In this document: positions 28,044-57,202 of the stretch, piece by piece
Numbering within the stretch: the first letter of the stretch is position 1
Layout: each line of letters begins with the position of its first letter
Origin: Marine group II euryarchaeote REDSEA-S11_B3N4
GTDB lineage: Archaea; Thermoplasmatota; Poseidoniia; Poseidoniales; Thalassarchaeaceae
Length of the DNA: 64,000 nucleotides
Reading direction: 5' to 3'
Assembly: GCA_001628485.1 (NCBI GenBank)
Contig: LURR01000017.1
Coordinates: forward strand, 2,599-66,598
Position numbers and translations under genes: made by a program
The notes under the pieces: generated by a model
Database searches by the model: none
What the model was told of the DNA's origin: nothing
Seen by the model: only the letters and a program-made list of their open reading frames with translations

Positions 28044-31000
28044 ATGAGTCAGGCCCCAGAAAACACAGTTGTACGTCCAGAATACGATGCTTCGATGATG
28101 GGTCTGTACGCATCTCTGGTCGCTGGAGGACTTATGCTGGCCTATGCGATTTGGTACGTTACGGTGGTGAATGTAGACAACGACTACTCATTCCTTACCC
28201 TCGGTGTCATCACCGGAGCCACCGCAGTATCTGTGATAGGCTTACACGAGTGGATGAGGAGTCAGGCTGGCCCAGACAGGTCGGAGAACCCGATTGAGGA
28301 GTATGGAGGGGCGATAGCGGTTCTGATGGGCTCGCTATCTGTTGTTTGGCTCTCCCGGTTCGCAGTTTTCTATGCGGGCCAAGAGAATGACTGGATAGCA
28401 ATTCAAGATGGGGATGTTTGGATGCCAGTGTGGCTCGCGGCATTGCAGGCAGTGGGCATCCTTGTCGTGATGGAGATAAGCACTCGGAATATCCGGAGGC
28501 ACTCTCTCGGGACTCTACCGAGGACTGTTGTTGTCCTAGCACCTCTCGCGGTTCTGTTCAGTGGGGTGAAGATTTGGCTAGAATACTCTCGGGGGGAGGT
28601 TGAGACCTTCATCACCCTGTCAGTAATCCTCCTCTCAGGATCCGCCGTCCTCTACTCGCTCAGGCTAGACAGGGCCATCCTGTACCTAATGTCCTCAGGA
28701 GCCGCGGTAGGATTGCCCATATTCATCGCACTCAGCTCTTGGGGAGAGACTGAGCACGCCAGCCTGCTAGTCCCAGCAGTTGTGATTGTGGGGATAACCG
28801 CCACCGACAGAAGCCTATCCAAGAAAATGATCGAGAATGGGTCAGGGGCTGTGGTAGCCGCCATTCTGTTCTGCCAGATTCTGGCTGCGGACGAGACACA
28901 GTTCTCAATAGCCGGGCACACCATCTCCGAGCATCCGTTCGGCCTAACCTTCTGGCTCTGGGTCGCCCTCCTAGTCGGCTGGTTCGCACCAACGACGATG
29001 CAGAGAACCCCTGCTATGCCAGTGGGGTTGGCACTGGCACTGGCACTCCTCTCGGATGAGGCTGCCATGGTTGCCTGGGTGGTCGGAATCTGTGCATTCG
29101 TATACCTGGAGACCCGTCCACAGGCAAGAGACTGGGTCGTGAGAGCGACATACGTAGCCATGGTGGCCTCATGGACCGTGTCGTCGTTCATAGGTGCGGG
29201 AAGAGACGGAAACATACTCGAGTTCGAGTCTCTCAAACTCGGCATAGTAGACGGAATCTCCCTAGTGATATTCCCATCGTTGCTGGCCCTGGGAATATGG
29301 GCCCAGTGGAGAGGCAGGCTGAGGACCTATGAGGGCCCCTCAATCCTCTTGGTACTCGCATCATTAAATTACGAACTTCTAGAGGAGGCAGGCCCCCTCT
29401 TCCTGCTAATCATTTCAGCAGCATCACTATTCCAACTGAACTGGTTCTTGCGCTCGAGATTTGAAGATAGATACGAAAGAGAGTGGTTCTCGGACTTGGG
29501 ATATATAGTCCTCTTATCTTCCCCGTTGATCCTTTCCAGTATCCTAACAATCGGCGAGCAAGACCTGGAACCTATGATTCTGGCTTTGCCTCTGATACTG
29601 TTCTTCGGGGTGTTCGGGATCTGCCACAGGTGGAGAGTCGATGGCGAGAGCCTTGTTCTAAGGCCGGAGATGGCGACTATGCTCATACTGGTTCTAGTAT
29701 TCCTCATCAACAACGTCCGTCCTTGGGAGGAAGGGGACTTCTCAACAGAAACCATTTCCCTGACTCTGGCTTGCTCGGCTCTGCTTGCTGCCCTCCTAGC
29801 AGTAGAGGGAGGGGCTGCATTCAGGACAACTCCATTCGAGAGACTGGTGGGCATAACCTACCTCTTCTCCGTCTCAGTGGTCTCAGCGAATATCCTCTCT
29901 TGGGAGGGCGCAGAACTCTGGGCACGGGTAACTAGGGACTTGATCATCATCGCCGCTCCCGTAGTTGTAAACTTCCGCTTGAAGACTCTGCTAGACCTAT
30001 CGCAGGAGGCCAGAAACTTTGGCAGCATGACCCTTTTCGTACTTCTCTTAATCGGTATGACCGATTCCTCAGGGGGGTTGCTGGCACTGCCAGTTTTCGC
30101 CATCGCTGTGCAGAGGGCTGCGAAGCACGTATCCACTCCAGTCCTTGTGGCATTGCCCGTGGTTGCCGTAATCTATGCATCCTTCTTCGACTCTTTGCGG
30201 GACGAAAGCGACCTGATATGGGCACTACTCAATGGCATTCCATACCTAGGGGAAACGACGGATATTCTCCTATTTGACACTCCCAGATGGGTCTCTCTTC
30301 TACTGCTATCTATACCGGCCTCGGTTGCAATCCACCTCCCTTCGGAAAAGGAGCGTGAGGGCGGGTCAAGATACGGTCCAGAGCAACTCTTCGGACCCGC
30401 AGTCGCTACCCTCCTCTCCGTGGCTTTCCTCCTTCCGGATCCACAGACTGCGCCCATAGTCATCGTGACAGTCATTACTGCTGGAGCATGGAGACAGGGA
30501 GTAATCAATTGGTTTTGGATTTCTCCCATAGCATGGTTCTGGGCTTCTCTGGAGCTATTCCAGTATCTCGAAGTCGGACAGGGGTCGGACTATGCCCGTG
30601 TGATCGGGGGCTTGGCTGGATTCTCCCAGTACTTGCTTTTCCATAACGGATTGCTCCTGGCTAACTCGCCGTTCGAAGACCATGATGCGGGGAACGACGA
30701 ATTTCTGGGCTTGGCTTCCAGGGTGTACGGATACGTCTTCCTTCTAATTTCTGGAGGAGTAAGCGGAGCTCTCCCATTTGTCTCTGCCTTGGTGGCTGGC
30801 TGGGACGGCATCAGGACCGGCACTCCAATCGTACTGCACGGATCGGTTTTGGTCCAAACCCTGACTCTCGAGTCATGGTTGCGTCACGATTTTGGACTCC
30901 ATTCAGAAGATGCGCTGGTCTGGCCCATCGCTGTCGGCATTGTGATGGTCGGATTGTCATGGCGCAGGGCGAATCCCTACGGGCGGGAGGTCATGGTTCA

Positions 31001-31715
31001 GGCTGTCGGAACATCTGAGTCAGAGCCCTTCGACACGGAGAGGGACTTCGGGATGTTCGGCTCCGCATTCTTCCTGATTGCCATGTTCCCATACTCTGAG
31101 TTCATAGAAGTGGATTTCGCGTTCGGGGCATCGATAGTGCTTCTATCATTGCACCATGTCATCGTCGGTTTCGGCAGGGATCACGGATGGAGGAGGCTTA
31201 TCAGCCTGATCGGAATGCCTTCAGGCCTCATAGTCACAGGCGTTGCTTATGAGGGTCTGATAATGGTGCTGATGCTTTTCCTAGCATCTTTGACGCTCAT
31301 TGGTCAGGCTGTCCTATACGCCTCAAGAGGGGGTTTGGAGATTGGCAGCACAATCGAGGGTGCAGCCCCAATCGTTTCAGATGTGGGAGTCTCTGAGCCT
31401 TCTCCCGAGCCTAGTAAAACCAAAGAAGAGCCAACTGAGGTCAGTGAGGAAGCAGAACCAGAAGATGACGTGCCCTCGGAAGAGGTGGACGAGGAGGAAA
31501 GTGTCGAACCGGAACCAGTGAAACCACAATCTCCCTTATTCGAATCAGAAGACGCCCTCTTCGGAATTAGGTTGGAGCCGAACATGATGTACAACCTCAG
31601 AGAGATGATATCGACAAACAGGACCGTAGACTTCAGCAAGTGGTCTCCGGTACTGGCGATTAGCTCCAACGGATCAATAGTCCTGAACTGGGAGAAATCC
31701 TCAGAGGAGGAGTGA
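28044..31715 (+). CDS. Giant (1223 aa) polytopic membrane protein, ~30+ predicted TM helices, acidic Pro/Glu-rich C-terminal tail; no recognisable family
   Basis: Uninterrupted 3.67-kb ORF. Almost entirely hydrophobic helices with short loops. C-terminal ~150 aa EPSPEPSKTKEEPTEVSEEAEPEDD... Confidence 0.6.
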   Translation: MSQAPENTVVRPEYDASMMGLYASLVAGGLMLAYAIWYVTVVNVDNDYSFLTLGVITGATAVSVIGLHEWMRSQAGPDRSENPIEEYGGAIAVLMGSLSVVWLSRFAVFYAGQENDWIAIQDGDVWMPVWLAALQAVGILVVMEISTRNIRRHSLGTLPRTVVVLAPLAVLFSGVKIWLEYSRGEVETFITLSVILLSGSAVLYSLRLDRAILYLMSSGAAVGLPIFIALSSWGETEHASLLVPAVVIVGITATDRSLSKKMIENGSGAVVAAILFCQILAADETQFSIAGHTISEHPFGLTFWLWVALLVGWFAPTTMQRTPAMPVGLALALALLSDEAAMVAWVVGICAFVYLETRPQARDWVVRATYVAMVASWTVSSFIGAGRDGNILEFESLKLGIVDGISLVIFPSLLALGIWAQWRGRLRTYEGPSILLVLASLNYELLEEAGPLFLLIISAASLFQLNWFLRSRFEDRYEREWFSDLGYIVLLSSPLILSSILTIGEQDLEPMILALPLILFFGVFGICHRWRVDGESLVLRPEMATMLILVLVFLINNVRPWEEGDFSTETISLTLACSALLAALLAVEGGAAFRTTPFERLVGITYLFSVSVVSANILSWEGAELWARVTRDLIIIAAPVVVNFRLKTLLDLSQEARNFGSMTLFVLLLIGMTDSSGGLLALPVFAIAVQRAAKHVSTPVLVALPVVAVIYASFFDSLRDESDLIWALLNGIPYLGETTDILLFDTPRWVSLLLLSIPASVAIHLPSEKEREGGSRYGPEQLFGPAVATLLSVAFLLPDPQTAPIVIVTVITAGAWRQGVINWFWISPIAWFWASLELFQYLEVGQGSDYARVIGGLAGFSQYLLFHNGLLLANSPFEDHDAGNDEFLGLASRVYGYVFLLISGGVSGALPFVSALVAGWDGIRTGTPIVLHGSVLVQTLTLESWLRHDFGLHSEDALVWPIAVGIVMVGLSWRRANPYGREVMVQAVGTSESEPFDTERDFGMFGSAFFLIAMFPYSEFIEVDFAFGASIVLLSLHHVIVGFGRDHGWRRLISLIGMPSGLIVTGVAYEGLIMVLMLFLASLTLIGQAVLYASRGGLEIGSTIEGAAPIVSDVGVSEPSPEPSKTKEEPTEVSEEAEPEDDVPSEEVDEEESVEPEPVKPQSPLFESEDALFGIRLEPNMMYNLREMISTNRTVDFSKWSPVLAISSNGSIVLNWEKSSEEE

Positions 31716-37357: not shown

Positions 37358-38725
37358 CTAAGACCTAGAGAAAGCTGGATTTTCTCCTACTAAGTCCATC
37401 TCCCACCCTTCTTCGACTGATTCCTTCCCACCCACAGATAGGAGGTGGTGAAGCTTTACCAGAGCAGAGCCCGGTGGGCATAGAGAGCCGTGCCCGATGA
37501 TCCCTATCTCTTTCTGGTCTCTTCCCTTAGAGTACACGTTCATATTCACAGGACCGTGAATAGTATTGGTCACCATCACAACAACTCCTCCCTCAGAGAT
37601 GTGATCTTCAAGCATCACCCTTAGTCTGGTGTTCTCCAGACTGTCTTCTTCGGGATCGGATATGGGCAGGTGCCCCAAACCAGTTCCATGGAAAAGCAGA
37701 GCATCGAAGCCGGCGTCTATGGCTCCCTGAACCTGATCAGGATGTAGGTGTGGGTCTGAAATGAATTGCGCAATACGAACGGACTCATCGAACTGCTTCG
37801 GAGCCATTGCCTCCACCCGAGCGTCATGCGCCTCTGGCGAGTAATCTATGGACACGCCATCTCCGTCTATATCTACGAATGCGAGAGCCTCCTGGTTGAT
37901 TGGCTTGAATGCGTCCCTACGCGAGGAGTGGTACTTCCTGCAAGCACATCCCGGAAGTACAGCGCACCTACCGTCCGAGGAGCTCGCATGTACAATCACC
38001 ACAGACGAGTCGCGGTATCCAGAAGGAGCTGGACCATGGGCTGCCCAATGTACCGAGGCGATTAGATTCTCAGTCGCATCTGAAGAGCCTCTATCCGGAG
38101 ATCTCTGCGACCCTGTCAGGACGATTCTACCGGGTGGCCTACCTCCTTGGCCGGCCCACCCGTATGACATGGCTGCTGAGGATATGTGCAGGGTATCTGT
38201 TCCATGGGTGATGACGCAACCAACCGCTCCCTCGGCGAAAGCCTCCTCGGTAGCTTTCAGCATCCTGTTCCAGTGCCTTGGTCTAAGATCGTCTGACCAC
38301 ATGTTTCCAAGCTTGACTGCTCGTATCCTCGCTATCTTTCGAAGTTCGGGCACGGCATCCAGTAACTCGTGTGGGTCGAATCTTGCAGTGACCGCACCTG
38401 TGGCATAGTCTACCTTGCTGGCTATGGTCCCACCTGTGTGTATCAGATGGACAAGTGGCAGAGTCTCGTCCTGGGGTTCGATCTCGCTGGCGTCTTCCTC
38501 TATGTGAGGCACATCTTCCAGGACTTCGAATGAGTCAACGTATGACTCAGGGAATGAAACGTTGTACCCGTTCTGTAGTTTCATTGTGATTAGTTTAGGC
38601 CCGGAACTAGGTAGTGCAAGTCCACTATGCTCCACCTTTCCGGACCAGGTCTTGACCACAAGCCTCACCGGCACTCCGGGCTTTGGCCAACCCTCCATGC
38701 AAGAGGGCAGAGAGCCTCGGCCCAT
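37358..38725 (-). CDS. gatD: Glutamyl-tRNA(Gln) amidotransferase subunit D (asparaginase-like)
   Basis: About 90-aa N-terminal GatD domain then asparaginase motif LVHLIHTGGTIASKVDYATG. ORF nominally opens at 38800 but that would overlap the tRNA-Met 3' end; Met at 38725 (or 38698) is used. No gatE adjacent. Confidence 0.75.
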   Translation of the reverse strand: MGRGSLPSCMEGWPKPGVPVRLVVKTWSGKVEHSGLALPSSGPKLITMKLQNGYNVSFPESYVDSFEVLEDVPHIEEDASEIEPQDETLPLVHLIHTGGTIASKVDYATGAVTARFDPHELLDAVPELRKIARIRAVKLGNMWSDDLRPRHWNRMLKATEEAFAEGAVGCVITHGTDTLHISSAAMSYGWAGQGGRPPGRIVLTGSQRSPDRGSSDATENLIASVHWAAHGPAPSGYRDSSVVIVHASSSDGRCAVLPGCACRKYHSSRRDAFKPINQEALAFVDIDGDGVSIDYSPEAHDARVEAMAPKQFDESVRIAQFISDPHLHPDQVQGAIDAGFDALLFHGTGLGHLPISDPEEDSLENTRLRVMLEDHISEGGVVVMVTNTIHGPVNMNVYSKGRDQKEIGIIGHGSLCPPGSALVKLHHLLSVGGKESVEEGWEMDLVGENPAFSRS

Positions 38726-38750
38726 CAATGGCTCGCTTCCAGTTTGGTAT

Positions 38751-38879
38751 TGGTGCCGGGAGCGGGACTTGAACCCGCGACCTTCGGATGACTCAGGCAT
38801 CTCGAAGGGGGCCTACGGCGTGAACGTGCCTTTCGGCTGCCCTATGAGTCCGACGCGCTACCAACTACGCCACCCCGGC
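38751..38879 (-). tRNA. tRNA-Met/Ile2 (anticodon CAT) with a 53-nt intron at canonical position 37/38, CCA encoded
   Basis: Revcomp: GCCGGGGTGGCGTAGTTGGTAGCGCGTCGGACTCATA[GGGCAGCCGAAAGGCACGTTCACGCCGTAGGCCCCCTTCGAGATGCCTGAGTC]ATCCGAAGGTCGCGGGTTCAAGTCCCGCTCCCGGCACCA. All four stems pair after intron removal. G1-C72, so not an initiator. Confidence 0.8.
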
Positions 38880-41809: not shown

Positions 41810-43540
41810 TCAACCCTCTGGCTCTATCTCACGAGCAACATCAAGAAACTCCTCGATACTAATCAGTCCGTCTTTGTCAGTGTCTCCTTTGCCGAAAACA
41901 TCCCCGATCAACTGGTCTCCTCGGCGATTTCTGGTTTTCGAGAGAACTATGGCATCGTCGGGAATGTTTGGCCCCCCTCCTTCGATGTATCCTAGAGCCT
42001 TGAAAGCGCTGACGAATTGGTCTAGATCCAACTGCCCATCTCCCTCTGCATCGGCATCGTAGAATGCAGCGAACAATCTTCTCCTCTCAGCTTCGTTTGA
42101 ATTAGTAAGCATCAGCCTCACAGTTTCCCAGGGAGTAATCTGTGCATCCACCCTACTTCTGCCATAGCCGTTGTAGATGATCAATCCCAGAACTATCGCC
42201 GCCGAGGCTCCAACCAGGGACTTCGAACCCATCAAATAAAGCAAGGCCCCCCCTCCGAAGATACCAAACAACTGTACCGCGGGATATAGGGGCCAAGGTG
42301 TCTTCCACTGTGGATCGTACCATGTGTGCGAATCCGATGAGGTCCTAAGCACTATCACACATCCATTTATGAGCATGAATATCATTATCTTGAATCCAGA
42401 TGCGAGTTCAGCGACATCATGAACAGGAAGGAATGTTATCGCCAGACCCATAGCCACTCCCGTCCCAATTATTGCCCAATGAGGAGTCCCAAATCTCTGA
42501 TGGACACTCTCAAGAAAAGGAGGAAGTAGATTATCTCTGGACATCGCAAATGGGAATCTCGATGAAGCAAGAATACCCGCTAAAGCCATTGAAGTCATGG
42601 TCACGACAGCGAGAATTGCAGCGATCTTTCCAACGGTCTCTCCTCCTACTGCCTCAGCGAAGATGTATATTGGATCCTCGCTAGCGCCGTGTTCGCCATG
42701 CATGTATTCAGAGGGGGAAACTGCAGCCGCCATTACCATAGTGACCAAAACGTACAGCAGACAGCTGAATAGTAGCGAAAGAAGAATCCCATACGGAAGG
42801 TTCCTCTCGGGGTTCTTGACCTCTCCGCCCACTGCAGCGATTTTGGTCACACCAGCGTAGGAGACAAACACAAATGCCGATGTAGCGGCAACATCCTCCC
42901 AACTCCCAAAAGAATCCTTGGAAGAAACAGCACTCCAATCCAGATCATGGTATGCAATCGCATAAACGCACAGAGCGAATAGGTAAGCTGCGGAAAATAT
43001 CACGATTGGAATCTGTACCTTCTTGATCTTCTTCACACCAAGGATGTTTATTCCGACGATGATCGCTAGGAGTAGGATTGCAGCCGCCTCTATATCGATA
43101 TCCATCCCCAGCAAATCCTCTATTACCCAGAGATAGGCTTTGAAGCCAATTAATGCGAATGCAGACTTTAGCATGAAATTGGCCCACAAACCCAGACCTG
43201 CTACAGTTCCTATGAGGGGGCCGAAGGTCTTCTGCACGTACACGTAAGAGCCACCCGATGTGGGCATAGCTGTTGACAGCTCTGACTTTGAGACGGCACC
43301 AGGAATTACGAGAACTGCAGCAACTAGGTAAGCCAGCCAGACGCCCCCTAGTGGGATATCTCCGCCTCCAAGTTCTAGCATGGCGAGAGCAGGAAGCACG
43401 AAAAGTCCAGATCCTATCATTGCGGACAAAGAGATAATTATCACCGAAAATAGCCCTATCTTCCTTTCCAGTCCGTCAGACTCCGTATCCTTGGGAGTCA
43501 ACACTATTCCTACTAGGTCCTCTGGACCGTAGTGACGCAT
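41810..43540 (-). CDS. APC-superfamily amino-acid permease fused to a C-terminal EF-hand pair
   Basis: 12 TM helices with GSGLFVLPA motif. C-terminal loops [12 protein letters not shown] and a canonical [15 protein letters not shown] nominally extends to 43651. Confidence 0.8.
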
Positions 43541-43617
43541 GATTTGACGGCCCCACACACCCCAGTTGAAGGTTCTGCATACCCAATGGTTAGATACTCT
43601 TTCCAAACCGAGCAGAC

Positions 43618-44106
43618 ATGGTTGACACAATTGAACATGGAACAATTGCATCAGTGCATTACACTGGAACTTTCGCAGAGGGGGGAGAGTTCGATAGCAG
43701 CAGAGGAAAGGATCCCTTGGTTTTCATAGTTGGCTACGGGCAGATGATTACTGGATTCGAGAGAGAGATGCTAGGGGCTAAGGTGGGCGAGAAGAGGGAG
43801 TTCACTTTGTCGCCTGAAGATGCTTACGGGGAGAGAATAGAGGATGCTATTCAGAAGGTTGAGAGGGAAAACTTTCCTGAGAATATGGAGCTTGAAGTCG
43901 GAATGGTCGTTGGTGCCCATAGTGATCAGGGCCCGATTCAATTCACTATTGTCGAGATAGATGAAGAAGTGGTCACTGCTGACTTCAATCACCAGATGGC
44001 CGGTAGAACCCTAAGATTCGAAGTAGAAGTCGTTGACATTCGGGCGGCTTCCGAAGAAGAACTGGCTCATGGGCATGTCCATGGACCCGGTGGCGTAGAT
44101 CACTGA
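43618..44106 (+). CDS. slyD: FKBP-type peptidyl-prolyl isomerase with IF (chaperone) insert, SlyD-like, His-rich C-terminus
   Basis: VHYTGTFAEGGEFDSS...LVFIVGYGQMITGFE, insert domain, C-terminal HGHVHGPGG. Confidence 0.85.
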   Translation: MVDTIEHGTIASVHYTGTFAEGGEFDSSRGKDPLVFIVGYGQMITGFEREMLGAKVGEKREFTLSPEDAYGERIEDAIQKVERENFPENMELEVGMVVGAHSDQGPIQFTIVEIDEEVVTADFNHQMAGRTLRFEVEVVDIRAASEEELAHGHVHGPGGVDH

Positions 44107-45178: not shown

Positions 45179-45829
45179 TCATGCCCTTGCAATGACCTTC
45201 AACTCGATGGCAATTGAAGTTGGCAGAGCTTCGACTGAAACGGTGGTCCTTGCTGGAAGAATCTCAGAGAAGTACTCCGCGTAAACCTCGTTGTACTCCT
45301 GGAAATCTCTTTCCATGTCCGTCAGGAAGACTAGGACATCAACGATATCTTCCAGACCGAGCCCATATTCTTCGAGAATCGCCCTGATGTTACCAATTAC
45401 TGCGTGTGTCTGCGCTCTAATGTCATACTCCAGAGGATTTCCAGCCTCATCCTTTATTGGTCCTCCGGGTATTTCATTTGTCCCAGGCTGCCGGGGACCC
45501 ATACCGCTAACGAAGACTAGGTCCCCTACTCTGCGTAAATGAGGATAAGCTCCAACTGCCGCGGGGCCTCCCTCTGCGATGAAGGCTCCATCCTCACTGG
45601 TAAGCTTCCCAGCCGCCTTCCGTCCAACTACCGCTCCCAACACGCCTCCTACGGGACCACCAACCGCCACGCCAGCAGCTGCTCCCAGAGCACCTCCAGC
45701 AGATCTCGCAAGAGACTGCCCAACCTCGTCGTAAACCTTCTCGACCGCGTCAGCAGGAGCAGAGACAATCCCTTCAACCATCTTCTTCCTTTTTTCCTCA
45801 GTCGTCATTTGCTCCTCATCTTCCATCAC
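45179..45829 (-). CDS. RidA/YjgF-family (enamine/imine deaminase-like) protein with Gly/Ala-rich N-terminal extension
   Basis: C-terminal ~130 aa VGDLVFVSGMGPR...RTTVSVEALPTSIAIELKVIA is the chorismate-mutase-like RidA fold. N-terminal GAAAGVAVGGPVGGVLGAVVG glycine-zipper-like segment. Confidence 0.7.
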   Translation of the reverse strand: MMEDEEQMTTEEKRKKMVEGIVSAPADAVEKVYDEVGQSLARSAGGALGAAAGVAVGGPVGGVLGAVVGRKAAGKLTSEDGAFIAEGGPAAVGAYPHLRRVGDLVFVSGMGPRQPGTNEIPGGPIKDEAGNPLEYDIRAQTHAVIGNIRAILEEYGLGLEDIVDVLVFLTDMERDFQEYNEVYAEYFSEILPARTTVSVEALPTSIAIELKVIARA

Positions 45830-46749
45830 AAGGCCCCCGTATTCAATACTCCTCGATCACCATGGTAATGTTCCACATCGTCCTCGTCAAACTCCTTGTC
45901 TCCTACAGAGCCTTTCGATGGAGTCAGAACGACAACCGCACCTCCCGAGCCATGAAGTGCCTCATAGGCCAAAACCTCGCCTCTGTAGTTGTTGTTTTGG
46001 CCCATTGTAGCGGACATCCACCAAGCTGGCTTGTAAGCCACGACCTTTTGCACTCTAATCTGCCCATGGATCTCTCTCGAAAGCTGACTTAGGTCCTCCA
46101 GCCTGCCGTCTCCGAAGAACTCCAGGATTTTCTTGTTCCACTCGTCATCCTTAGCAGAGTGTATCCGGTCCTCTGCAGGGTCGATGTGCTCCGTGAACAT
46201 CCTGTTTGAAAGGCTGGAAACTACCACTACAACTGCCTTCTTGCCCTGAGCGGCAATCGCATCACGCGCAGACTTGCCCAGAACAATCGTTTCAGCCCTA
46301 TTTGCATACATGTTACTGGATACGATACATGCAGGAATCCTGTTATCTGGGTTTAGAAGCTTGAGCGCAACAATCGAGCCTGTGTCTATCGGGAAACCAT
46401 CGTAAGCCACCGTTCTAGATTGTAGCCCTCTCGATTCTGCAGACTCTCTGAATTTCTCGGCAAACTCTGTGTCCATCTTGAACTTGTATGGCATGCTACC
46501 CAGGTAGTGGAAGTCATCGTCCACATGCACCCATTCCGGCTCGGGATGTCCCTGTATCTGGTGGCCAATGATGCTAGGCCATGTCGTCGAGTAAACCAGT
46601 ATCAGGTCTGCCTCGCTTTCCTCGATCCTTTTCCTGCATGTCTCGAATGCATCCCTTAGTTTCCCATATCCCTCACTTGCTTCTGGTGATAGAAGTGGTT
46701 GTGGGTGGGGCGGACAGTAAATCCCGAAAAGAATCTCTGGATCTGACAT
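45826..46749 (-). CDS. LigB-family (class III extradiol dioxygenase) homologue lacking catalytic His residues; alpha-like, probably non-catalytic subunit
   Basis: LigB-fold N-terminus GIYCPPHPQPL. Positions equivalent to LigB His61 and His195 read T and N (STTWPSIIG; SSLSNRM). Confidence 0.55.
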   Translation of the reverse strand: MSDPEILFGIYCPPHPQPLLSPEASEGYGKLRDAFETCRKRIEESEADLILVYSTTWPSIIGHQIQGHPEPEWVHVDDDFHYLGSMPYKFKMDTEFAEKFRESAESRGLQSRTVAYDGFPIDTGSIVALKLLNPDNRIPACIVSSNMYANRAETIVLGKSARDAIAAQGKKAVVVVVSSLSNRMFTEHIDPAEDRIHSAKDDEWNKKILEFFGDGRLEDLSQLSREIHGQIRVQKVVAYKPAWWMSATMGQNNNYRGEVLAYEALHGSGGAVVVLTPSKGSVGDKEFDEDDVEHYHGDRGVLNTGAL

Positions 46750-46758
46750 TTAATCACC

Positions 46759-47664
46759 TCAGAGCACAATCTCTCTGGTTGCCTCTATTGGATCCCACGC
46801 GGCAATCAGGTTGCCCGTGCCTATCACCGATTGATAACCGTAAATTTCGGCAGGGTACTCAGGATAGCCCATGGCTGCCATCATCCAAGTGAGCCCTCCG
46901 GCTTCAGTCTCTGCGATCGTCTGCTCCGTGAATTCGGGCATAATGTCGATCACTTCTTTCATCTTCCCACCTCTCATCAGGTCTACCAGCTTCATATCCC
47001 AGACGTATTGGCTGTGATTGTATATGTGCTCCCTGCTCATATCCTCGGGGAGGGGGGACTCAGTCACGAAGTGCCTGTGGGATAGGCTATGGCTACTGAT
47101 CAGTACAACTTTCTTCCCACTCTCTTCTATTGCCTTTGCACAGGCAATCCCAAGGGCACTGGCCTGCTCATTCATCACTTCTGGCGAGTAGTAGTGCGCG
47201 TTTCGGTTACTACTTATCGTAACCAGTGGCTTGTCCCACTCAGGATTAAGCATGTGGCATGACGTGATTGTCCCATAGTCGATTCTGAAGTCAGGATTCC
47301 GCATCATCTTAGTCACTATCCCGGATTCCCCAGCAACCTCACACATCTTCTCTGCCAACTCTACATCTACTGAGATGTCGTAGTTGAACCGGAAGAGATT
47401 AGGAAAAACAGGGTCAACCGACTTTGACTTGAATTTAGGCAGCCCGAGGAAATGAGTTCCGATGTAAGTCTGCCAGTGAGGGGTGAAGATGACCATTGCA
47501 TCGTAGTCAATCGATTTCAGTTTCCTTGCGAGTCTGTTGTAACCCCATCTGAGTGTCTCCCATCCTCCTTCTGCGAAAGCCTCGTTCTGTTCCGGATTCT
47601 CCGCATAAACTACATGCGGGGGGTGTGGAGCGAGGCATCCTAGTACTATCTCTCCCTTCGCCAT
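46759..47664 (-). CDS. LigB-family class III extradiol ring-cleavage dioxygenase, catalytic (beta-like) subunit
   Basis: Fe ligands and base conserved: LAPHPPH (His12 equivalent), FTPHWQ (His61), SSHSLSH (His195), ETEAGG (Glu242). Confidence 0.65.
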   Translation of the reverse strand: MAKGEIVLGCLAPHPPHVVYAENPEQNEAFAEGGWETLRWGYNRLARKLKSIDYDAMVIFTPHWQTYIGTHFLGLPKFKSKSVDPVFPNLFRFNYDISVDVELAEKMCEVAGESGIVTKMMRNPDFRIDYGTITSCHMLNPEWDKPLVTISSNRNAHYYSPEVMNEQASALGIACAKAIEESGKKVVLISSHSLSHRHFVTESPLPEDMSREHIYNHSQYVWDMKLVDLMRGGKMKEVIDIMPEFTEQTIAETEAGGLTWMMAAMGYPEYPAEIYGYQSVIGTGNLIAAWDPIEATREIVL

Positions 47665-47746
47665 ATCCCTCCGAGGTCGAGAAATCTAAAGAAAACCTTC
47701 CGGCCCTCCTAGTAGAGTTCATGGGACACCTCTTGGACGCTGTGCC

Positions 47747-48157
47747 ATGAAGTGGGACGAACCTCCTCTTTGGCCAGTGGCAGTGCCGAGTCTAGCCGGA
47801 TTTGCAGCAGCATGCATCCCATATGTGTTTCCAAACACTCCACAGCTAGTGGGCGGCGAACTGACAACTCCATTCATCCTACTGGTGATTGTGAGTCCAC
47901 TCCTATACTTCTCTCCCGAACCGACTGGGGGGAGGGCAGAGTTGGTACTAGGAGCCAACATTGGGATGTTCTTCGCATTCTTTCCCCAAGCAATATTCTT
48001 CGTTTGGTTCATCATAGTCATCCTGCTTTGGCTAGCCCAGTCAATGTATGTCTGGAGAAGAAATTACCCCGCTTTCAGAATCGGGACTTGGCTTGGATTA
48101 GGAGCAGTTTCTGGATTATTCATCGGAGGTCTGTTCGGACACCTCATCCTTGTTTGA
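47747..48157 (+). CDS. Small hypothetical membrane protein (4 TM)
   Basis: 136 aa hydrophobic ORF. 3' end overlaps the convergent PAP2 gene. Confidence 0.35.
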   Translation: MKWDEPPLWPVAVPSLAGFAAACIPYVFPNTPQLVGGELTTPFILLVIVSPLLYFSPEPTGGRAELVLGANIGMFFAFFPQAIFFVWFIIVILLWLAQSMYVWRRNYPAFRIGTWLGLGAVSGLFIGGLFGHLILV

Positions 48158-49576
48158 CCAGATCATCCCCCCTACCACAAGTCCGCTTATTGCGAAAGAT
48201 GGGACGGATGACAGGACTCCGGTCCAGACGAGATACCCATCCACGTACTCAATCGTGATCCTGACTTCGCCAACCCCATCATCCCCCTGATTGGATACCA
48301 GAACATAATGTCCGTCGAACACCGTGGTAGTCTCAACCTCTACTTGGTAAACCTCTCCCGGAGAAATGATCTGAATGTCCTGATTAGAGAATGCTGACCA
48401 GTCGATCTTCCCCCCTCTTGCATGCTCTTCGACCATGTCCCTGTGAATTACTAGAATCTGTACATCGGCCAATCCTACATTTCTGACCTCTACCTCTGCG
48501 GGGTGCCACAAACTGTGTACCTCGATGACGTCAAGGTTAACATCTCTAGGCCCGACTCTCATCGTAGGCTCATTTTCATCGGTCCCAGGACCATCTATGA
48601 CGACAAATACTAGCATCAGAGTCCCGATTACGGAGAATGCCACAGCGGTGTTAGAAACGCTCCTTGAATGAGCGAGGGAGCGCAAACCGTCCACTCTGAG
48701 ATTCCTAAGCTTGGGTTGGAAGCCATGGGCGAAGAGAGCGCATATTACGGCCAGTATCACTCCTGGGATGACGTCCGAAATCCAGTGAATCCCAAGGTAT
48801 TGGATACTGAACAAATAGATTGGGATATTTGCTGCTACGAAAAGGTCGAACTCCCTGTGGCGCCATTCCGCCATTTTGATTCCCAGGCCTCTAACGTGTA
48901 GCCGATTGATTATCAATAGGCCAAGCGGGAGGCCAACATGCAGACTCGGAATGCCGTTGTCCAGTGGGTCTACTTCAGTGAAGAAGAATAGGTTCCAAGA
49001 CTCGTGGTACATGATAGCATCCATTCCAGGAATGAATGAGGATGTCACCTCGACGTTGAAGAAAAGGTAGAGGGGGACTGCGAGTACGTAGATTATCGAG
49101 TAGTTCAGCACTGCCTTGTCGGCCATGACCTCATCCCTACAGAGAATGTAGTAAATCGGACTGAACCAAATCAGGAACAGGTAGACGAACAGGTAGTGGA
49201 AGGACAGGACATCGCTAAGAAGCTCGTTACGAAAACTCTGCTGTACCCAGAGAGTCAACTCTCCTTCGAATCCGTGAATGTAGTGTGTGAATCCGCCGAC
49301 TCGAGGCTTTATCGCCTCGTTGTGTTGGTCAATGAAGGCCTTAAATCCGTACATTATTAGATAAACAGAAATATGCCATTTGTACCCCTTTTCCTTGATT
49401 TCTCCCAGTAGATCGGATAGCGCGACCCTCATCTCAGGCTCATCCCTGGTTAGGATCCGCTGGATCGGAATGGTCAGCAGGAGTATCGCACCCATTACCG
49501 TCTCGTACGGTCCGAAAGGCCACTCCATGGTCGAACCGCCTACAATCGAGTCATGAAACTTACAGTCGCTTAGCAA
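48116..49576 (-). CDS. PAP2-superfamily membrane phosphatase/phosphotransferase with ~190-aa C-terminal extracytoplasmic domain
   Basis: PAP2 motifs PSLH (PSGH) and SIQYLGIHWISD (SRx5Hx3D) within a 6-TM core. C-terminal domain after a final TM. Confidence 0.5.
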   Translation of the reverse strand: MLSDCKFHDSIVGGSTMEWPFGPYETVMGAILLLTIPIQRILTRDEPEMRVALSDLLGEIKEKGYKWHISVYLIMYGFKAFIDQHNEAIKPRVGGFTHYIHGFEGELTLWVQQSFRNELLSDVLSFHYLFVYLFLIWFSPIYYILCRDEVMADKAVLNYSIIYVLAVPLYLFFNVEVTSSFIPGMDAIMYHESWNLFFFTEVDPLDNGIPSLHVGLPLGLLIINRLHVRGLGIKMAEWRHREFDLFVAANIPIYLFSIQYLGIHWISDVIPGVILAVICALFAHGFQPKLRNLRVDGLRSLAHSRSVSNTAVAFSVIGTLMLVFVVIDGPGTDENEPTMRVGPRDVNLDVIEVHSLWHPAEVEVRNVGLADVQILVIHRDMVEEHARGGKIDWSAFSNQDIQIISPGEVYQVEVETTTVFDGHYVLVSNQGDDGVGEVRITIEYVDGYLVWTGVLSSVPSFAISGLVVGGMIWSNKDEVSEQTSDE

Positions 49577-53800: not shown

Positions 53801-53965
53801 TTACCTGCGTACTCTACTTCCGTCTTGAACAATGTCCCGGAATTACTAGTTCCATGTTTTTCTGACAGTCAACGCATTCTTGTGGAATCGTGTTTTCGGG
53901 GTAGTATGGCAAGTAGAGCGGATAGCGGGGAGCCCGACTCTATAATTCGGGCTCCAGGGGGAAAA

Positions 53966-56900
53966 ATGCCCATCCGAGTAATTACCGCGGCAGCCATCTT
54001 CGATGGGCACGATGCAGCCATCGGAATATTCCGCAGGATTCTACAGAGCCAAGGTTGTGAGGTTATCCACCTAGGGCACGATAGAGGTGCAGATGAGGTA
54101 GCACGTGCCGCCATACAGGAGGATGCCCATGCTGTAGCTATCACATCCTACCAGGGAGGGGCCGTCGAGATGTTCACACACACTAAAGACATCTTGCAGA
54201 AAAACGGTTTCGAGCACGTTTTCCTCTTTGGAGGAGGCGGCGGAACCATCCTGCCAAAAGAGATCGATCACCTCAAGGAACAGGGGATTTCTAAGATTTA
54301 TTCCCCGGACGATGGCAGGGACCTTGGCCTAGTTGGGATGGTCAGGGACGCAATGACCAGCGCATCCGCCACAGACCTACTTGCTGAATCCAGATTCGAC
54401 CAGATAACGGGCCAGGTAGATGCAGACAATCATGCTGCAGTATCTCTCCTACTGACCATGGCAGAAAACTCGCCCCCTGATCAATTCTCAGACAAATTAT
54501 CCCAAGCACGCTCCAGGGAAGTCGAAGCAGAGTGCCCCGTAGTGGGGATAACCGGAACAGGTGGGGCTGGGAAGTCGAGCCTGATGGACGAGGTCATGCT
54601 TAGGATCAGGCGAGACAATCCCGATGCCAGGGTCGCACTGCTAGCAACCGATCCCACGAGGAAGAAGACTGGAGGCGCGCTACTTGGGGACAGAATCAGG
54701 ATGAACTCCCTCTCGGACTCAAAGTTGTTCATGCGCTCCTTCGCGAGCCGGGAAAGTGGGCGAGAGATAGCTGAGTGCATAGATCGCGCCGTCGAGGTCT
54801 GTAAGGCAGTGGGTTTCGACTTGGTTTTGGTCGAGACCAGCGGGATAGGACAAGGTAACGACGCAATAACCGAGGTCGCTGATACCTCGATATACGTAAC
54901 AACAAGGGAGTACGGTGCACCCAGCCAGTTGGAGAAGTTAGCCGCCCTAGATTTCGCTGACATTGTGGTTCTGAACAAGTTCGATAGGCCCGGGGCCGAG
55001 GATGCACTAACGGAGATTCGCAAGCAATTCCAGAGGAACAGAGAGGCATTCGGAGAAAGCCCGGAGTCAATGCCGGTGGTTCCCACGATTGCTAGCCAGT
55101 TCGCAGACGCGGGAGTGGATCGACTTTGGGAGATGATGTCCTCACTCCTGAACGACAGATTCGATACAGACTTCGCAGCAAGTGAGGCTAGACTGGGCCC
55201 AGACGGACTTCCCAGCCGCGATGCCCCGATTCCTCCCGAGCGCCAGGGATATCTGGCAGAAGTAGCTTCTACGGTGAGAGGTTATCACAAGAGGTCTGAG
55301 GACTTGGCCAAGGCGGTCAGACAAGTCCAGCAGTTAGAATCTGTGGCCAAATTCCTCGACTCCTCGAAAAAGGAGGGGAATCACATTGACTTGCTGGAAG
55401 AGGCGATGGAAATACGCGAATCTCTGCCCGAATCTGCATGGGGGGCTCTGGAGGATTTCGAATCAATAGTAGACTCCTATAGATCCGGACAGGCGAGTTA
55501 CACTGTTCGAGGAAAGGAAATCCCGGTAAAGACGACGCATGAGACCATTTCGGGGACTAGGGTGCCTAGGGTGGCACTCCCTACAACGGAGGACTGGGGC
55601 GAGAAACTTCTGTGGATAAGCAAGGAGAACGTTCCAGGCTCCTTTCCTTTCACCGGAGGGGTCTTCCCGTTCAGAAGGGAGGATGAACTTCCGGTCAGAA
55701 TGTTTGCCGGGGAAGGCAGCGCGGAGAGGACCAACAAGCGATACCACTTCCTATCCAAGGATCAGCCATTCAACCGCCTATCGGTAGCATTCGACTCACC
55801 AAGCCTGTACGGTAACGACCCCCAGGAGAGGTTGGATATTTTCGGGAAGGTCTGTGAGTCTGGCGTAAGCATCAGCACCGTAGACGAGATGGAGATGCTC
55901 TTCGACGGCTTCGACCTGTGCGCACCCGACACGTCTGTCAGCATGACAATCAATGGGAACTACTGGTGGCACCTAGCAGCGTTCTTCAGAGTTGCAATCA
56001 GGCAGCAGACTAGGAAGTTCATCGACGAGAACGGAAGAGAACCGAACGAGAAAGAAGCCTCGGAGATTAAGGCATACTCCCTATCAACCGTAAGGGGGAC
56101 CGTACAAGCCGACCAGTTGAAGGAAGCCATGGGCCAGAACACATTAGTCTTCAATCTGGATACCGCACTGAGGATGATGGGGGACGTCGCGGAGTTCTAC
56201 GTGGACAATGAAGTCCGAAACCACTACTTCGTCAGCATCAGCGGATACCACATTGATGAGGCAGGTGCCAATCCGATCACCCAAGCAGCGCTGACCCTGT
56301 CAAATGGCCTAACCTACGTCGAGCTATTCAAGGCCAGGGGACTCGATCCGGACAAGTTCCTGAGGAACTTCTCATGGTTCTTCTCCAATGGAATGGATCC
56401 GGAGTACGCGGTAATTGGCAGGGTCTCAAGGAGGATATGGGCCATAGCCATGCGAGACCTATATGGGGTCGGGGAGAGGGGACAGAAGCTGAAGTACCAC
56501 ATACAGAGCAGTGGTAGATCCCTGCATTCTCAGGAGTTCACATGGAATGATTACCGAACCACCCTACAGGCCCTGTATGCCCTCGCAGACAACGCGAACA
56601 GCCTCCACACCAACAGCAGGGACGAGGCCTTCGGGACCCCTACAGAAGACACAGTCAGGGATGCGGTGGCAATCCAACTAATTCTTGCTAAGGAGTATGG
56701 CTGGCTCAGGAACGAGAACCCACTCCAAGGCTCATTCGTAGCCGACTACCTGACCGATGAGGTCGAGGAGAAGGTACTCAGGATTTTCGAGGAGATGCAC
56801 AGCAGGGGAGGGGTTTTGGGAGCCCTGGAAGTCAACTACCAGAGAAATAGGATCCAGGACGAGGGGATGCTCTACGAGCACAGAAAGCACACTGGAGAAA

Positions 56901-57202
56901 CTCCGATAGTCGGAGTTAACACCTTCACTGACGAGGACTCAGCCACTCCATCGGCCGATGATTTCGACTTGGACGTCACAAGATCTGACGAGGAGGAGAA
57001 AATGAAGGTCATCGCAAGGAACGCAGAATTCAGAGAGGCCCACTCTAAAGAGGCTGCGGAGGGACTTTCCAAGCTGAAGAATACGGCGCGCGAGGGAGGC
57101 AACCTGTTCGAGGTAATGATGGAAATCGTAGAACACTGCTCAGTGGGCCAGGTCACCCAGGCCCTTTTCGAGAGCGGGGGGAAGTTCAGAAGGAACATGT
57201 GA
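53966..57202 (+). CDS. icmF: Fused isobutyryl-CoA mutase IcmF-type protein (B12-binding domain + MeaB-like G3E GTPase + acyl-CoA mutase TIM-barrel)
   Basis: B12 domain [25 protein letters not shown] (DxHxxG). MeaB P-loop [13 protein letters not shown] and LATDPTR. About 600-aa mutase substrate domain. ORF opens at 53825; the Met at 53966 has an upstream AGGGGG. Confidence 0.85.
   Translation: [1078 protein letters not shown]

What the first reader, a model, noticed from the sequence alone, without database searches (positions are those of the whole stretch)
45179..47664. LigB-type alpha/beta extradiol dioxygenase pair plus RidA deaminase: a 2-aminophenol-dioxygenase-like module
Three co-directional minus-strand genes make up the module. 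The 301-aa LigB-family protein retains residues matching LigB His12, His61, His195 and Glu242. The adjacent 307-aa paralogue keeps the fold but has T and N at the His61 and His195 positions. That is the arrangement seen in heteromeric class-III dioxygenases such as 2-aminophenol 1,6-dioxygenase AmnA (non-catalytic) and AmnB (catalytic). Immediately downstream is a RidA/YjgF-family protein, the family to which 2-aminomuconate deaminase belongs, with an unusual Gly/Ala-rich N-terminal extension. The other pathway enzymes (semialdehyde dehydrogenase etc.) are not present, so the physiological substrate is open. Candidates are aminophenol-, catechol- or DOPA-like compounds.
Basis: partly seen in the sequence, partly recalled or inferred. 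Interest (0 to 1): 0.55.

Follow-up and report, generated by a model that had tools for sequence, protein, structure and literature searches.

The report
Archaeal aminophenol ring-cleavage gene trio
Three adjacent genes in this marine archaeal (Marine Group II) genome are clear relatives of the bacterial enzymes that split open 2-aminophenol rings and then remove the nitrogen; the trio was found next to each other in every related genome examined, so these very abundant ocean archaea probably break down some natural amino-aromatic compound that has not been identified.

Summary
The 301-aa protein matches 2-aminophenol 1,6-dioxygenase beta subunits (E 8e-106, about 50% identity). It keeps all five active-site residues. 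The 307-aa paralogue matches the alpha subunits (E 3e-42) and has lost four of the five. The RidA protein's best solved relative is 2-aminomuconate deaminase.

The window comes from a Candidatus Poseidoniales archaeon and is otherwise housekeeping genes. The trio is syntenic in all 80 related species-level genomes fetched wherever the contig extends far enough, so it is a long-resident gene set and not a pollutant-degradation island.

- The deaminase's odd N-terminal extension corresponds to the inter-domain linker of alpha-subunit::deaminase fusion proteins, found in eight relatives and in three distant lineages. It is therefore more likely a tether than a membrane anchor.
- In 15 of the 80 relatives a 2-aminomuconate-semialdehyde-dehydrogenase-like gene lies just upstream. 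It comes with luciferase-like monooxygenase, short-chain dehydrogenase (SDR) and asparaginase-II-like genes.

None of these extra genes is in this window. The substrate is unknown. Public automated annotation (JGI) already names the genes correctly, but no paper found discusses them.

The parts
46759..47664 (-). amnB-like gene: catalytic beta subunit of a 2-aminophenol 1,6-dioxygenase-type extradiol dioxygenase (301 aa)
   Evidence: PDB phmmer: 8ihg_A 8e-106, 3vsg_B 9e-105, 7txy_B 5e-96. H14, H63, E252, Y130 and H196 are kept and invariant in 75 relatives.
45826..46749 (-). amnA-like gene: non-catalytic alpha subunit paralogue (307 aa)
   Evidence: PDB phmmer: 3vsg_A 2.8e-42, 7txy_A, 8ihg_B. 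It has T56, Q234, T123 and N182 at the ligand and second-sphere positions. There is a 9-nt gap after amnB.
45829..45903 (-). C-terminal acidic tail of the alpha subunit (GDKEFDEDDVEHYHGDRGVLNTGAL). It extends beyond the end of the bacterial alpha-subunit sequences used in the alignment and precedes the linker in the fused forms.
   Evidence: Alignment to 3vsg_A and 8ihg_B. At least 90% conserved at most positions in 55 relatives. Fusion junctions.
45179..45826 (-). amnD-like RidA-family deaminase gene (215 aa from ATG 45826; the start overlaps the amnA stop as TGATG)
   Evidence: Pfam Ribonuc_L-PSP 1.3e-27. Best PDB hit is 2-aminomuconate deaminase 6izh, 3.1e-27, with the shared loop insertion, Arg193 and Lys210. 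Junction sequence.
45572..45826 (-). N-terminal extension of the deaminase (residues 1-85): a variable acidic part, predicted helices and a Gly/Ala-rich core. It is proposed to be a tether to the alpha subunit.
   Evidence: Conserved in relatives. It corresponds to the linker in alpha::RidA single-ORF fusions in 8 loci. It is absent in L087 and L092.
45623..45703 (-). Gly/Ala-rich hydrophobic core of the extension (SAGGALGAAAGVAVGGPVGGVLGAVVG)
   Evidence: Near-invariant among 52 distinct relatives. Kyte-Doolittle 19-residue maximum is 1.79, which is borderline. Present in some fusion linkers and missing in others.
47665..47746 (.). 82-bp divergent intergenic region between amnB and the small membrane-protein gene. 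It is the presumed promoter region: an A/T-rich TTTAGA box lies about 30 nt upstream and GGAGGG lies just before the ATG.
   Evidence: Read directly from the sequence. This is inference only; the sigma-70 scanner was not used because the organism is an archaeon.
47747..48157 (+). Conserved divergently transcribed small membrane protein (136 aa, four hydrophobic segments, no family match). It is always next to amnB.
   Evidence: tblastn hit immediately upstream of amnB in nearly every locus that extends upstream, including loci where the other neighbours differ. No Pfam or NCBIfam family. Hydropathy.
48116..49576 (-). PAP2-superfamily membrane protein, co-directional with the trio. It is a frequent but not universal neighbour, and its link to the module is uncertain.
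   Evidence: Weak Pfam PAP2_3 and PAP2 matches. It lies between the ALDH and amnB in L087 and L088. Present in most loci.
41810..43651 (-). Amino-acid permease with a C-terminal EF-hand domain. It follows the deaminase gene directly and co-directionally in many relatives. It is a possible substrate importer (inference).
   Evidence: Synteny. Pfam families AA_permease and EF-hand are listed for the homologues.

Best explanation
The three genes form one operon in a Candidatus Poseidoniales (Marine Group II) archaeon.

Shown:
- The 301-aa beta subunit carries a complete Fe(II) 2-His-1-carboxylate site (H14, H63, E252) with the second-sphere Tyr130 and His196.
- The 307-aa alpha subunit is a degenerate paralogue without that site.
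- The third gene is a RidA-family protein of the 2-aminomuconate-deaminase type.

Inferred by homology:
- Alpha and beta assemble into a heteromeric extradiol dioxygenase that uses O2 to open an ortho-aminophenol ring next to the hydroxyl. A catechol is a less likely substrate. The product is a 2-aminomuconate-semialdehyde-type compound.
- The deaminase hydrolyses the enamine/imine form of the opened chain and releases ammonium. It may act after oxidation by an aldehyde dehydrogenase, as in the canonical order, or directly on the semialdehyde.
- The deaminase's N-terminal extension is a flexible tether that keeps it at the alpha subunit. In eight related genomes and three distant lineages the alpha subunit and the deaminase are a single fused polypeptide joined by this same region.

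The dehydrogenase and any upstream or downstream enzymes are not in this window. The natural substrate is unknown.
For: - Family assignment at high significance and full length.
- Active-site residues kept in beta and lost in alpha.
- Tight gene spacing: a 9-nt gap and a TGATG overlap.
- The trio is present in the same order in every one of 80 Poseidoniales species-level loci that extends far enough.
- Alpha::RidA single-ORF fusions occur in 8 loci with three different linkers. The same fusion occurs in distant cluster representatives P0282, P0323 and P0350, and their genes follow an amnB-like gene.
- An ALDH lies adjacent in 15 of the 80 loci and in L087-L092, L094 and L095. The ALDH of locus L068 was the one compared with solved structures; its best relatives are 2-aminomuconate 6-semialdehyde dehydrogenases (4u3w 2e-146, 4i1w, 7bzv).
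- In characterised systems the deaminase is the gene that marks the aminophenol branch as opposed to the catechol branch (PMC10470539).
- The two subunits of a characterised enzyme were insoluble when expressed alone (PMC10470539).
- GC content does not differ from the surroundings.
Against: - No enzyme activity has been measured for any archaeal member.
- This window, and 65 of the 80 relatives, show no semialdehyde dehydrogenase within 10 kb. No 4-oxalocrotonate decarboxylase, hydratase or aldolase was seen in any locus. The pathway may therefore be incomplete, or different, in this lineage.
- Characterised enzymes of this family also cleave catechol (PMC10470539).
- The tether idea rests on gene fusions in relatives, not on structure. 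The AlphaFold model of the extension had pLDDT below 50.
- The hexamer-forming Arg56 of the Pseudomonas deaminase is Asn here.
Confidence: 0.75

Rival explanations
1. In this lineage the pathway is truncated. Without a dedicated semialdehyde dehydrogenase, the ring-cleavage product either cyclises spontaneously to picolinic acid (a metal chelator), or is deaminated directly by the tethered RidA to 2-hydroxymuconate semialdehyde. The module would then serve detoxification, nitrogen scavenging or picolinate formation, not carbon catabolism.
For: - No ALDH in the window, nor within 10 kb in 65 of the 80 relatives.
- 2-Aminomuconate semialdehyde rearranges chemically to picolinate in Burkholderia (PMC3790839).
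- Fusing the deaminase to the dioxygenase alpha subunit suggests it receives the dioxygenase product directly.
- The adjacent ALDH in relatives scores best in NCBIfam against the 2-hydroxymuconic semialdehyde dehydrogenase model.
Against: - An ALDH could be encoded elsewhere in the genome; whole genomes could not be searched.
- The deaminase is closest to an enzyme whose known substrate is 2-aminomuconate, not the semialdehyde.
- Lineages that have the fusion also have the ALDH.
Confidence: 0.2
2. The dioxygenase works mainly on a catechol or another diol, as in ordinary meta-cleavage. The RidA protein is a general enamine/imine housekeeping deaminase that merely happens to be a neighbour.
For: - The Micromonospora enzyme cleaves both 2-aminophenol and catechol (PMC10470539).
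- NCBIfam places the RidA protein only in the general Rid family, below the model's cut-off.
Against: - The RidA gene is translationally coupled to the alpha gene or fused to it in all lineages examined.
- It resembles 2-aminomuconate deaminase more than generic RidA proteins do, and shares its loop insertion and its Lys-for-Glu change.
- No 4-oxalocrotonate tautomerase, the marker of the catechol branch, was found in the window or in any annotated related locus.
Confidence: 0.1
3. The two LigB-family genes encode two independent catalytic dioxygenases, or single-subunit DOPA-dioxygenase-like enzymes.
For: Both match Pfam LigB. The alpha subunit keeps one His (H15) beside the first ligand column.
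Against: - The alpha subunit lacks the second His, the Glu and both second-sphere residues in 55 of 55 relatives.
- It matches solved non-catalytic alpha subunits at 2.8e-42.
- DOPA dioxygenase scores only 6e-5 against alpha and 0.14 against beta.
Confidence: 0.02
4. The Gly/Ala-rich segment of the deaminase is a transmembrane anchor that fixes the deaminase to the cell membrane, next to the conserved small membrane protein and the permease.
For: - The 27-residue G/A/V/L segment is followed by Arg-Lys and has a hydropathy maximum of 1.79.
- It is nearly invariant.
- Membrane-protein genes are conserved neighbours.
Against: - In four fused proteins the segment sits between two soluble domains. 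A single membrane span would then place the dioxygenase subunit and the deaminase on opposite sides of the membrane.
- Other fused or unfused relatives lack the segment altogether.
- The hydropathy is only borderline.
Confidence: 0.15

Closest known systems
2-Aminophenol 1,6-dioxygenase AmnAB / CnbCaCb (Pseudomonas sp. AP-3, Comamonas testosteroni CNB-1; PDB 3VSG-3VSJ, 8IHG)
   Same: - Adjacent beta and alpha paralogue genes in the order amnB-amnA.
- The beta subunit is about 50% identical over its full length, with the same Fe ligands and second-sphere residues.
- The alpha subunit is degenerate at the same positions.
   Different: - The host is an archaeon.
- The gene is a deep separate branch: 48-51% identity to both proteobacterial and actinobacterial enzymes, which are 55-58% identical to each other across phyla.
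- The alpha subunit has a conserved acidic C-terminal tail.
- The gene context is housekeeping genes, not an amnBACDFEHG catabolic operon with a MarR regulator.
ARO microcompartment dioxygenase of Micromonospora rosaria (PDB 7TXY; PMC10470539)
   Same: A heteromeric alpha-beta enzyme of the same family. One pathway protein carries a terminal extension used for spatial organisation.
   Different: - In ARO the extension is an encapsulation peptide on the beta subunit, and shell-protein genes are present.
- Here the extension is on the deaminase.
- No shell-protein family appeared among the Pfam matches for the window or in the annotated related loci.
2-Aminomuconate deaminase (AmnD, called AmnE in PDB 6IZH; PMC6742747)
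   Same: - Best solved relative of the third gene (3.1e-27).
- Shared long loop between the first strands.
- Conserved Ser-Gly, Arg (R193 here) and Lys (K210 here, where the generic RidA PH0854 has Glu).
   Different: - An 85-residue N-terminal extension that the Pseudomonas enzyme lacks.
- Arg56, needed for the Pseudomonas hexamer, is Asn here.
- The gene follows amnA directly instead of following amnC.
- In relatives it is fused to amnA.
LigAB protocatechuate 4,5-dioxygenase (founder of Pfam LigB)
   Different: LigA is a small unrelated subunit (established knowledge of the family), whereas the alpha subunit here is a full-length LigB paralogue. LigAB did not appear among the hits with E up to 1.

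Membership tests
2-aminophenol 1,6-dioxygenase (AmnAB/CnbC type, LigB superfamily) | Two adjacent paralogous LigB-fold genes, beta followed by alpha | tested here: met
   ORFs and a pairwise E of 1e-26. Order and spacing.
2-aminophenol 1,6-dioxygenase (AmnAB/CnbC type, LigB superfamily) | The beta subunit keeps His/His/Glu iron ligands and the Tyr/His second sphere (His13, His62, Glu251, Tyr129, His195 in the Comamonas enzyme) | tested here: met
   H14, H63, E252, Y130 and H196. Reference residues from PMC5291488. Invariant in 75 relatives.
2-aminophenol 1,6-dioxygenase (AmnAB/CnbC type, LigB superfamily) | The alpha subunit lacks a functional metal site | tested here: met
   T56, Q234, T123 and N182. 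Only H15, beside the first ligand column, remains.
2-aminophenol 1,6-dioxygenase (AmnAB/CnbC type, LigB superfamily) | Closer in sequence to characterised AmnB and AmnA than to other LigB-family enzymes | tested here: met
   Beta: 8e-106 against AmnB, versus 6e-12 for HpaD and 0.14 for DOPA dioxygenase. Alpha: 2.8e-42 against CnbCa.
2-aminophenol 1,6-dioxygenase (AmnAB/CnbC type, LigB superfamily) | Cleaves 2-aminophenol between C1 and C6 to give 2-aminomuconate 6-semialdehyde | not testable with these tools
   Needs an enzyme assay.
2-aminomuconate deaminase (AmnD; RidA subfamily of YjgF/YER057c/UK114) | RidA fold with the conserved active-site Arg | tested here: met
   Pfam PF01042 1.3e-27. 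The PARTTV motif gives Arg193, aligned to Arg117 of 6izh.
2-aminomuconate deaminase (AmnD; RidA subfamily of YjgF/YER057c/UK114) | Features that set AmnD apart from generic RidA: the extended loop and Lys135 | tested here: met
   The loop insertion is aligned with 6izh and is a gap in the PH0854 alignment. K210 aligns with Lys135, where PH0854 has Glu.
2-aminomuconate deaminase (AmnD; RidA subfamily of YjgF/YER057c/UK114) | Hexamer held by Arg56 and Met96 (a feature of the Pseudomonas enzyme) | tested here: not met
   Arg56 aligns with Asn. This describes one member and not the whole family, so it lowers only the claim of an identical quaternary structure.
2-aminomuconate deaminase (AmnD; RidA subfamily of YjgF/YER057c/UK114) | Deaminates 2-aminomuconate to 4-oxalocrotonate | not testable with these tools
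   Needs an assay. The substrate is unstable (PMC6742747).
Complete amn meta-cleavage operon (amnBACDFEHG) | Semialdehyde dehydrogenase amnC in the same cluster | tested here: not met
   No ALDH in the 64-kb window. It is present next to the trio in 15 of the 80 related loci.
Complete amn meta-cleavage operon (amnBACDFEHG) | Lower-pathway genes: 4-oxalocrotonate decarboxylase, hydratase, aldolase and acetaldehyde dehydrogenase | tested here: not met
   None in the window or in the annotated related loci.

The most novel reading that the evidence does not exclude
The trio is the conserved core of a so far undescribed pathway for a natural nitrogen-containing aromatic compound in ocean water. 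In this pathway the deaminase is physically coupled to the dioxygenase's silent alpha subunit, either tethered or fused. It would then deaminate the unstable ring-cleavage product directly, before oxidation, which reverses the textbook order and prevents cyclisation to picolinate. The accessory set seen in relatives (formyltransferase-like protein, short-chain dehydrogenase (SDR), luciferase-like monooxygenase (LLM), asparaginase-II-like amidohydrolase (AsnII), ALDH, EF-hand permease) would define the upstream steps and the substrate.
Probability: 0.25. Interest if true: 0.65.

Novelty: new variant of a known kind. Interest (0 to 1): 0.45.

Why it matters
Marine Group II archaea are described in the literature consulted as the most abundant planktonic archaea of surface oceans. 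They are uncultured, and they are thought to live on proteins and lipids (PMC6461757, PMC9723583). A ring-opening dioxygenase with a coupled deaminase, kept throughout the related genomes examined, would mean they also consume some amino-aromatic compound and release its nitrogen. None of the Marine Group II papers found mentions this trait.

The fused and tethered alpha-subunit/deaminase forms also suggest a job for the silent alpha subunit: a docking platform for the next enzyme.

NCBI records label many of these beta subunits as a tRNA-modification protein. That label hides the trait from metabolic surveys.

Tried and rejected
- **AlphaFold2 model of the deaminase.** Run with a 21-sequence alignment. 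Mean pLDDT was 48.5 and the extension was below 50, so it says nothing reliable about the extension. No fold search was run on it.
- **Exhaustive representative search with the beta subunit.** It returned mostly fragments. Only 33 proteins reached E 1e-30, which shows the family is compact but gives no taxonomy.
- **Cluster look-up of eight representatives.** It gave no organism names.
- **Genome-collection scan.** It filled all 80 slots with Poseidoniales, so the nearest non-archaeal relatives were not identified.
- **Search for the dehydrogenase elsewhere in this lineage.** The dehydrogenase protein search listed only proteins at least 67% identical, and all four hits whose surroundings were fetched lay near the trio. 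Whether the window's own lineage has a copy elsewhere stays open.
- **Solved-structure searches with three accessory proteins.** The luciferase-like, asparaginase-II-like and formyltransferase-like proteins gave no hit or only distant hits, which does not identify a substrate.
- **Literature.** Seven full-text searches found no paper linking these archaea with aminophenol or aminomuconate enzymes.
- **Promoter and terminator scanner.** Not used, because it models bacterial sigma-70 promoters.
- **Recent horizontal transfer island.** Rejected: GC content matches the surroundings and synteny is conserved across relatives whose beta subunits are 78-99% identical to the window's.
Full report
**What is there.** The region holds three tightly packed minus-strand ORFs: 46759-47664 (301 aa), 45826-46749 (307 aa) and 45179-45829. 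The first two are separated by 9 nt. The second and third overlap as TGATG, so the third most likely starts at ATG 45826 and encodes 215 aa. Pfam assigns LigB, LigB and Ribonuc_L-PSP. NCBIfam gives only sub-threshold matches.

**Family identity.**
- Against all solved structures, the 301-aa protein matches 2-aminophenol 1,6-dioxygenase beta subunits end to end: 8ihg_A 8e-106, 3vsg_B 9e-105, 7txy_B 5e-96. The next family, HpaD, scores 6e-12 and DOPA dioxygenase 0.14.
- The 307-aa protein matches the corresponding alpha subunits: 3vsg_A 2.8e-42, 7txy_A 1.8e-39, 8ihg_B 1.1e-38.
- The two window proteins are 25% identical paralogues.
- The Comamonas enzyme uses His13, His62 and Glu251 as iron ligands and Tyr129 and His195 as second sphere (PMC5291488). 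In a MAFFT alignment the window beta subunit has H14, H63, E252, Y130 and H196.
- The window alpha subunit has P14, T56, Q234, T123 and N182. The bacterial alpha subunits are degenerate at the same columns.
- Among relatives these beta residues are invariant in 75 distinct sequences. The alpha substitutions are fixed in 55 (Q, S or N at the Glu column). His15 beside the first column is always present, so one ligand might survive under a one-residue shift.

**The third gene.** Its best solved relative is 2-aminomuconate deaminase 6izh (3.1e-27), ahead of generic RidA proteins (4.5e-22 and weaker). The alignment shares the long loop insertion of that enzyme. It keeps Ser-Gly and the Arg (R193), and it has Lys (K210) where the generic RidA PH0854 has Glu. 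PMC6742747 places that deaminase in the RidA subfamily and names the same conserved residues. Its hexamer residue Arg56 is not conserved here. Bacterial amn clusters contain two RidA-family genes, amnJ and amnD (PMC3790839).

**Organism and setting.** Homologues at 80-99% identity carry names such as Candidatus Poseidoniales and Thalassarchaeaceae. The window is about 99% identical to single-cell genome AG-422-I18 and to REDSEA-S42_B7.

The rest of the window encodes archaeal housekeeping functions:
- A-type ATP synthase, PCNA, fibrillarin/Nop, RFC, eRF1-like and SMC/ScpB proteins;
- a fused methylmalonyl-CoA-mutase-like protein;
- a tRNA with an intron.

No aldehyde dehydrogenase, decarboxylase, hydratase, aldolase or tautomerase is present in the window. 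GC content of the module equals that of its surroundings.

**Conservation.** A scan of one genome per species found at least 559 genomes with a relative. The best 80 are all Poseidoniales, at 78-99% identity.
- In every locus long enough, amnB, amnA and the RidA gene occur in this order.
- A small four-segment membrane protein without family (window 47747-48157) is always divergently adjacent.
- A permease with an EF-hand domain and panB usually follow.
- Beta-subunit identity to proteobacterial and actinobacterial enzymes is 48-51%, while those enzymes are 55-58% identical to each other across phyla. The archaeal genes are therefore a separate deep branch, not a recent import.

**The extension is a tether.** The deaminase extension has a variable acidic start, predicted helices and a nearly invariant Gly/Ala-rich core. 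Its mean column identity is 75%, against 76% for the catalytic domain.

In eight species-level genomes (L042, L046, L050, L060, L068, L070, L078, L084) the alpha subunit and the deaminase are one ORF of 457-530 aa. The linker comes in three forms:
- with the Gly/Ala-rich core;
- short, without the core;
- a different, basic linker.

The same fusion exists in distant cluster representatives P0323, P0350 and P0282, and the genes for two of them follow an amnB-like gene. Two more divergent relatives have a 139-140-aa deaminase with no extension.

A segment that can lie between two soluble domains, or be absent, is better read as a flexible tether than as a membrane span. Its hydropathy is borderline at 1.79, and the AlphaFold model was uninformative.

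**The wider pathway in relatives.** In 15 of the 80 loci, and in L087-L092, a co-directional block lies upstream of the trio. It contains a formyltransferase-like gene, a short-chain dehydrogenase (SDR), a luciferase-like monooxygenase (LLM), an asparaginase-II-like gene (AsnII) and an aldehyde dehydrogenase (ALDH).
- The best solved relatives of the dehydrogenase tested (locus L068) are 2-aminomuconate 6-semialdehyde dehydrogenases: 4u3w 2e-146, 4i1w, and 7bzv, deposited as 2-aminomuconic 6-semialdehyde dehydrogenase.
- Its best NCBIfam model is 2-hydroxymuconic semialdehyde dehydrogenase, below that model's cut-off.
- A distant lineage carries the compact operon SDR, LLM, AsnII, ALDH, amnB, amnA::RidA.
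- Another distant lineage has amnB, amnA::RidA and a PF04199 cyclase/formamidase-family gene.

This argues that the trio normally works with a semialdehyde dehydrogenase and further, unassigned enzymes. Whether the window's lineage keeps them elsewhere could not be tested.

**Mechanism.**
- Shown: family membership, an intact catalytic site in beta, a degenerate site in alpha, operon structure, conservation, and fusion in relatives.
- Inferred: an alpha-beta complex cleaves an ortho-aminophenol with O2. The chain is oxidised and then deaminated, or deaminated and then oxidised, releasing ammonium. The tether keeps the deaminase at the complex.
- The semialdehyde cyclises to picolinate if it is not processed (PMC3790839), which gives a rationale for the coupling.

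**Novelty.** JGI automated annotation already names these genes 2-aminophenol dioxygenase subunits and 2-aminomuconate deaminase. NCBI names many beta subunits as a tRNA-modification protein or as hypothetical. No paper found connects these archaea with the enzymes. The module is therefore a member of a known enzyme system. It differs from the described systems by its archaeal host, the tethered or fused deaminase and a different accessory gene set.

Noticed in passing
window 38754-38879 (-): A 126-nt tRNA match in Rfam (58.7 bits) that ARAGORN did not report. Its length suggests an intron-containing archaeal tRNA. It overlaps the 5' end of the asparaginase/GatD-like ORF call (37358-38800), so that ORF's start is probably further downstream.
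   Followed up: no
homologues of window 46759-47664: Many NCBI records name this beta subunit 'tRNA U-34 5-methylaminomethyl-2-thiouridine biosynthesis protein'. This conflicts with the 8e-106 match to 2-aminophenol dioxygenase and looks like a propagated misannotation.
   Followed up: partly
L087 5821-11524, L089 5297-11452, L092 4012-9509, L094 2693-7096: The block of SDR, luciferase-like monooxygenase, asparaginase-II-like protein and aldehyde dehydrogenase is always co-linear. It lies beside the trio in archaeal and distant lineages, and a formyltransferase-like gene precedes it in L087, L089 and L092. It is probably the rest of the pathway. The luciferase-like protein has no solved relative by sequence, and the other accessory proteins only distant ones.
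   Followed up: partly
L093 4414-5046: In a distant lineage the amnB and amnA::RidA genes are followed by a PF04199 'cyclase' family gene. By established knowledge this family includes kynurenine formamidase and isatin hydrolase. Together with the formyltransferase-like gene in the archaeal clusters, it hints at an N-formylated aromatic amine precursor.
   Followed up: no
window 41810-43651 (-): An APC-family amino-acid permease with a C-terminal EF-hand calcium-binding domain, an unusual combination. It is conserved next to the trio in most relatives.
   Followed up: partly
window 53825-57202 (+): A single 1125-aa protein that combines a B12-binding domain, a MeaB-type GTPase and a methylmalonyl-CoA mutase domain. 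This is a fused mutase/chaperone architecture.
   Followed up: no
window 28044-31715 (+) and 7482-9320 (-): Two large ORFs (1223 aa and 612 aa) with no Pfam match at E up to 0.001.
   Followed up: no
window 47747-48157 (+) overlapping 48116-49576 (-): The conserved small membrane-protein gene and the PAP2-like gene converge and overlap by about 40 nt at their 3' ends.
   Followed up: no
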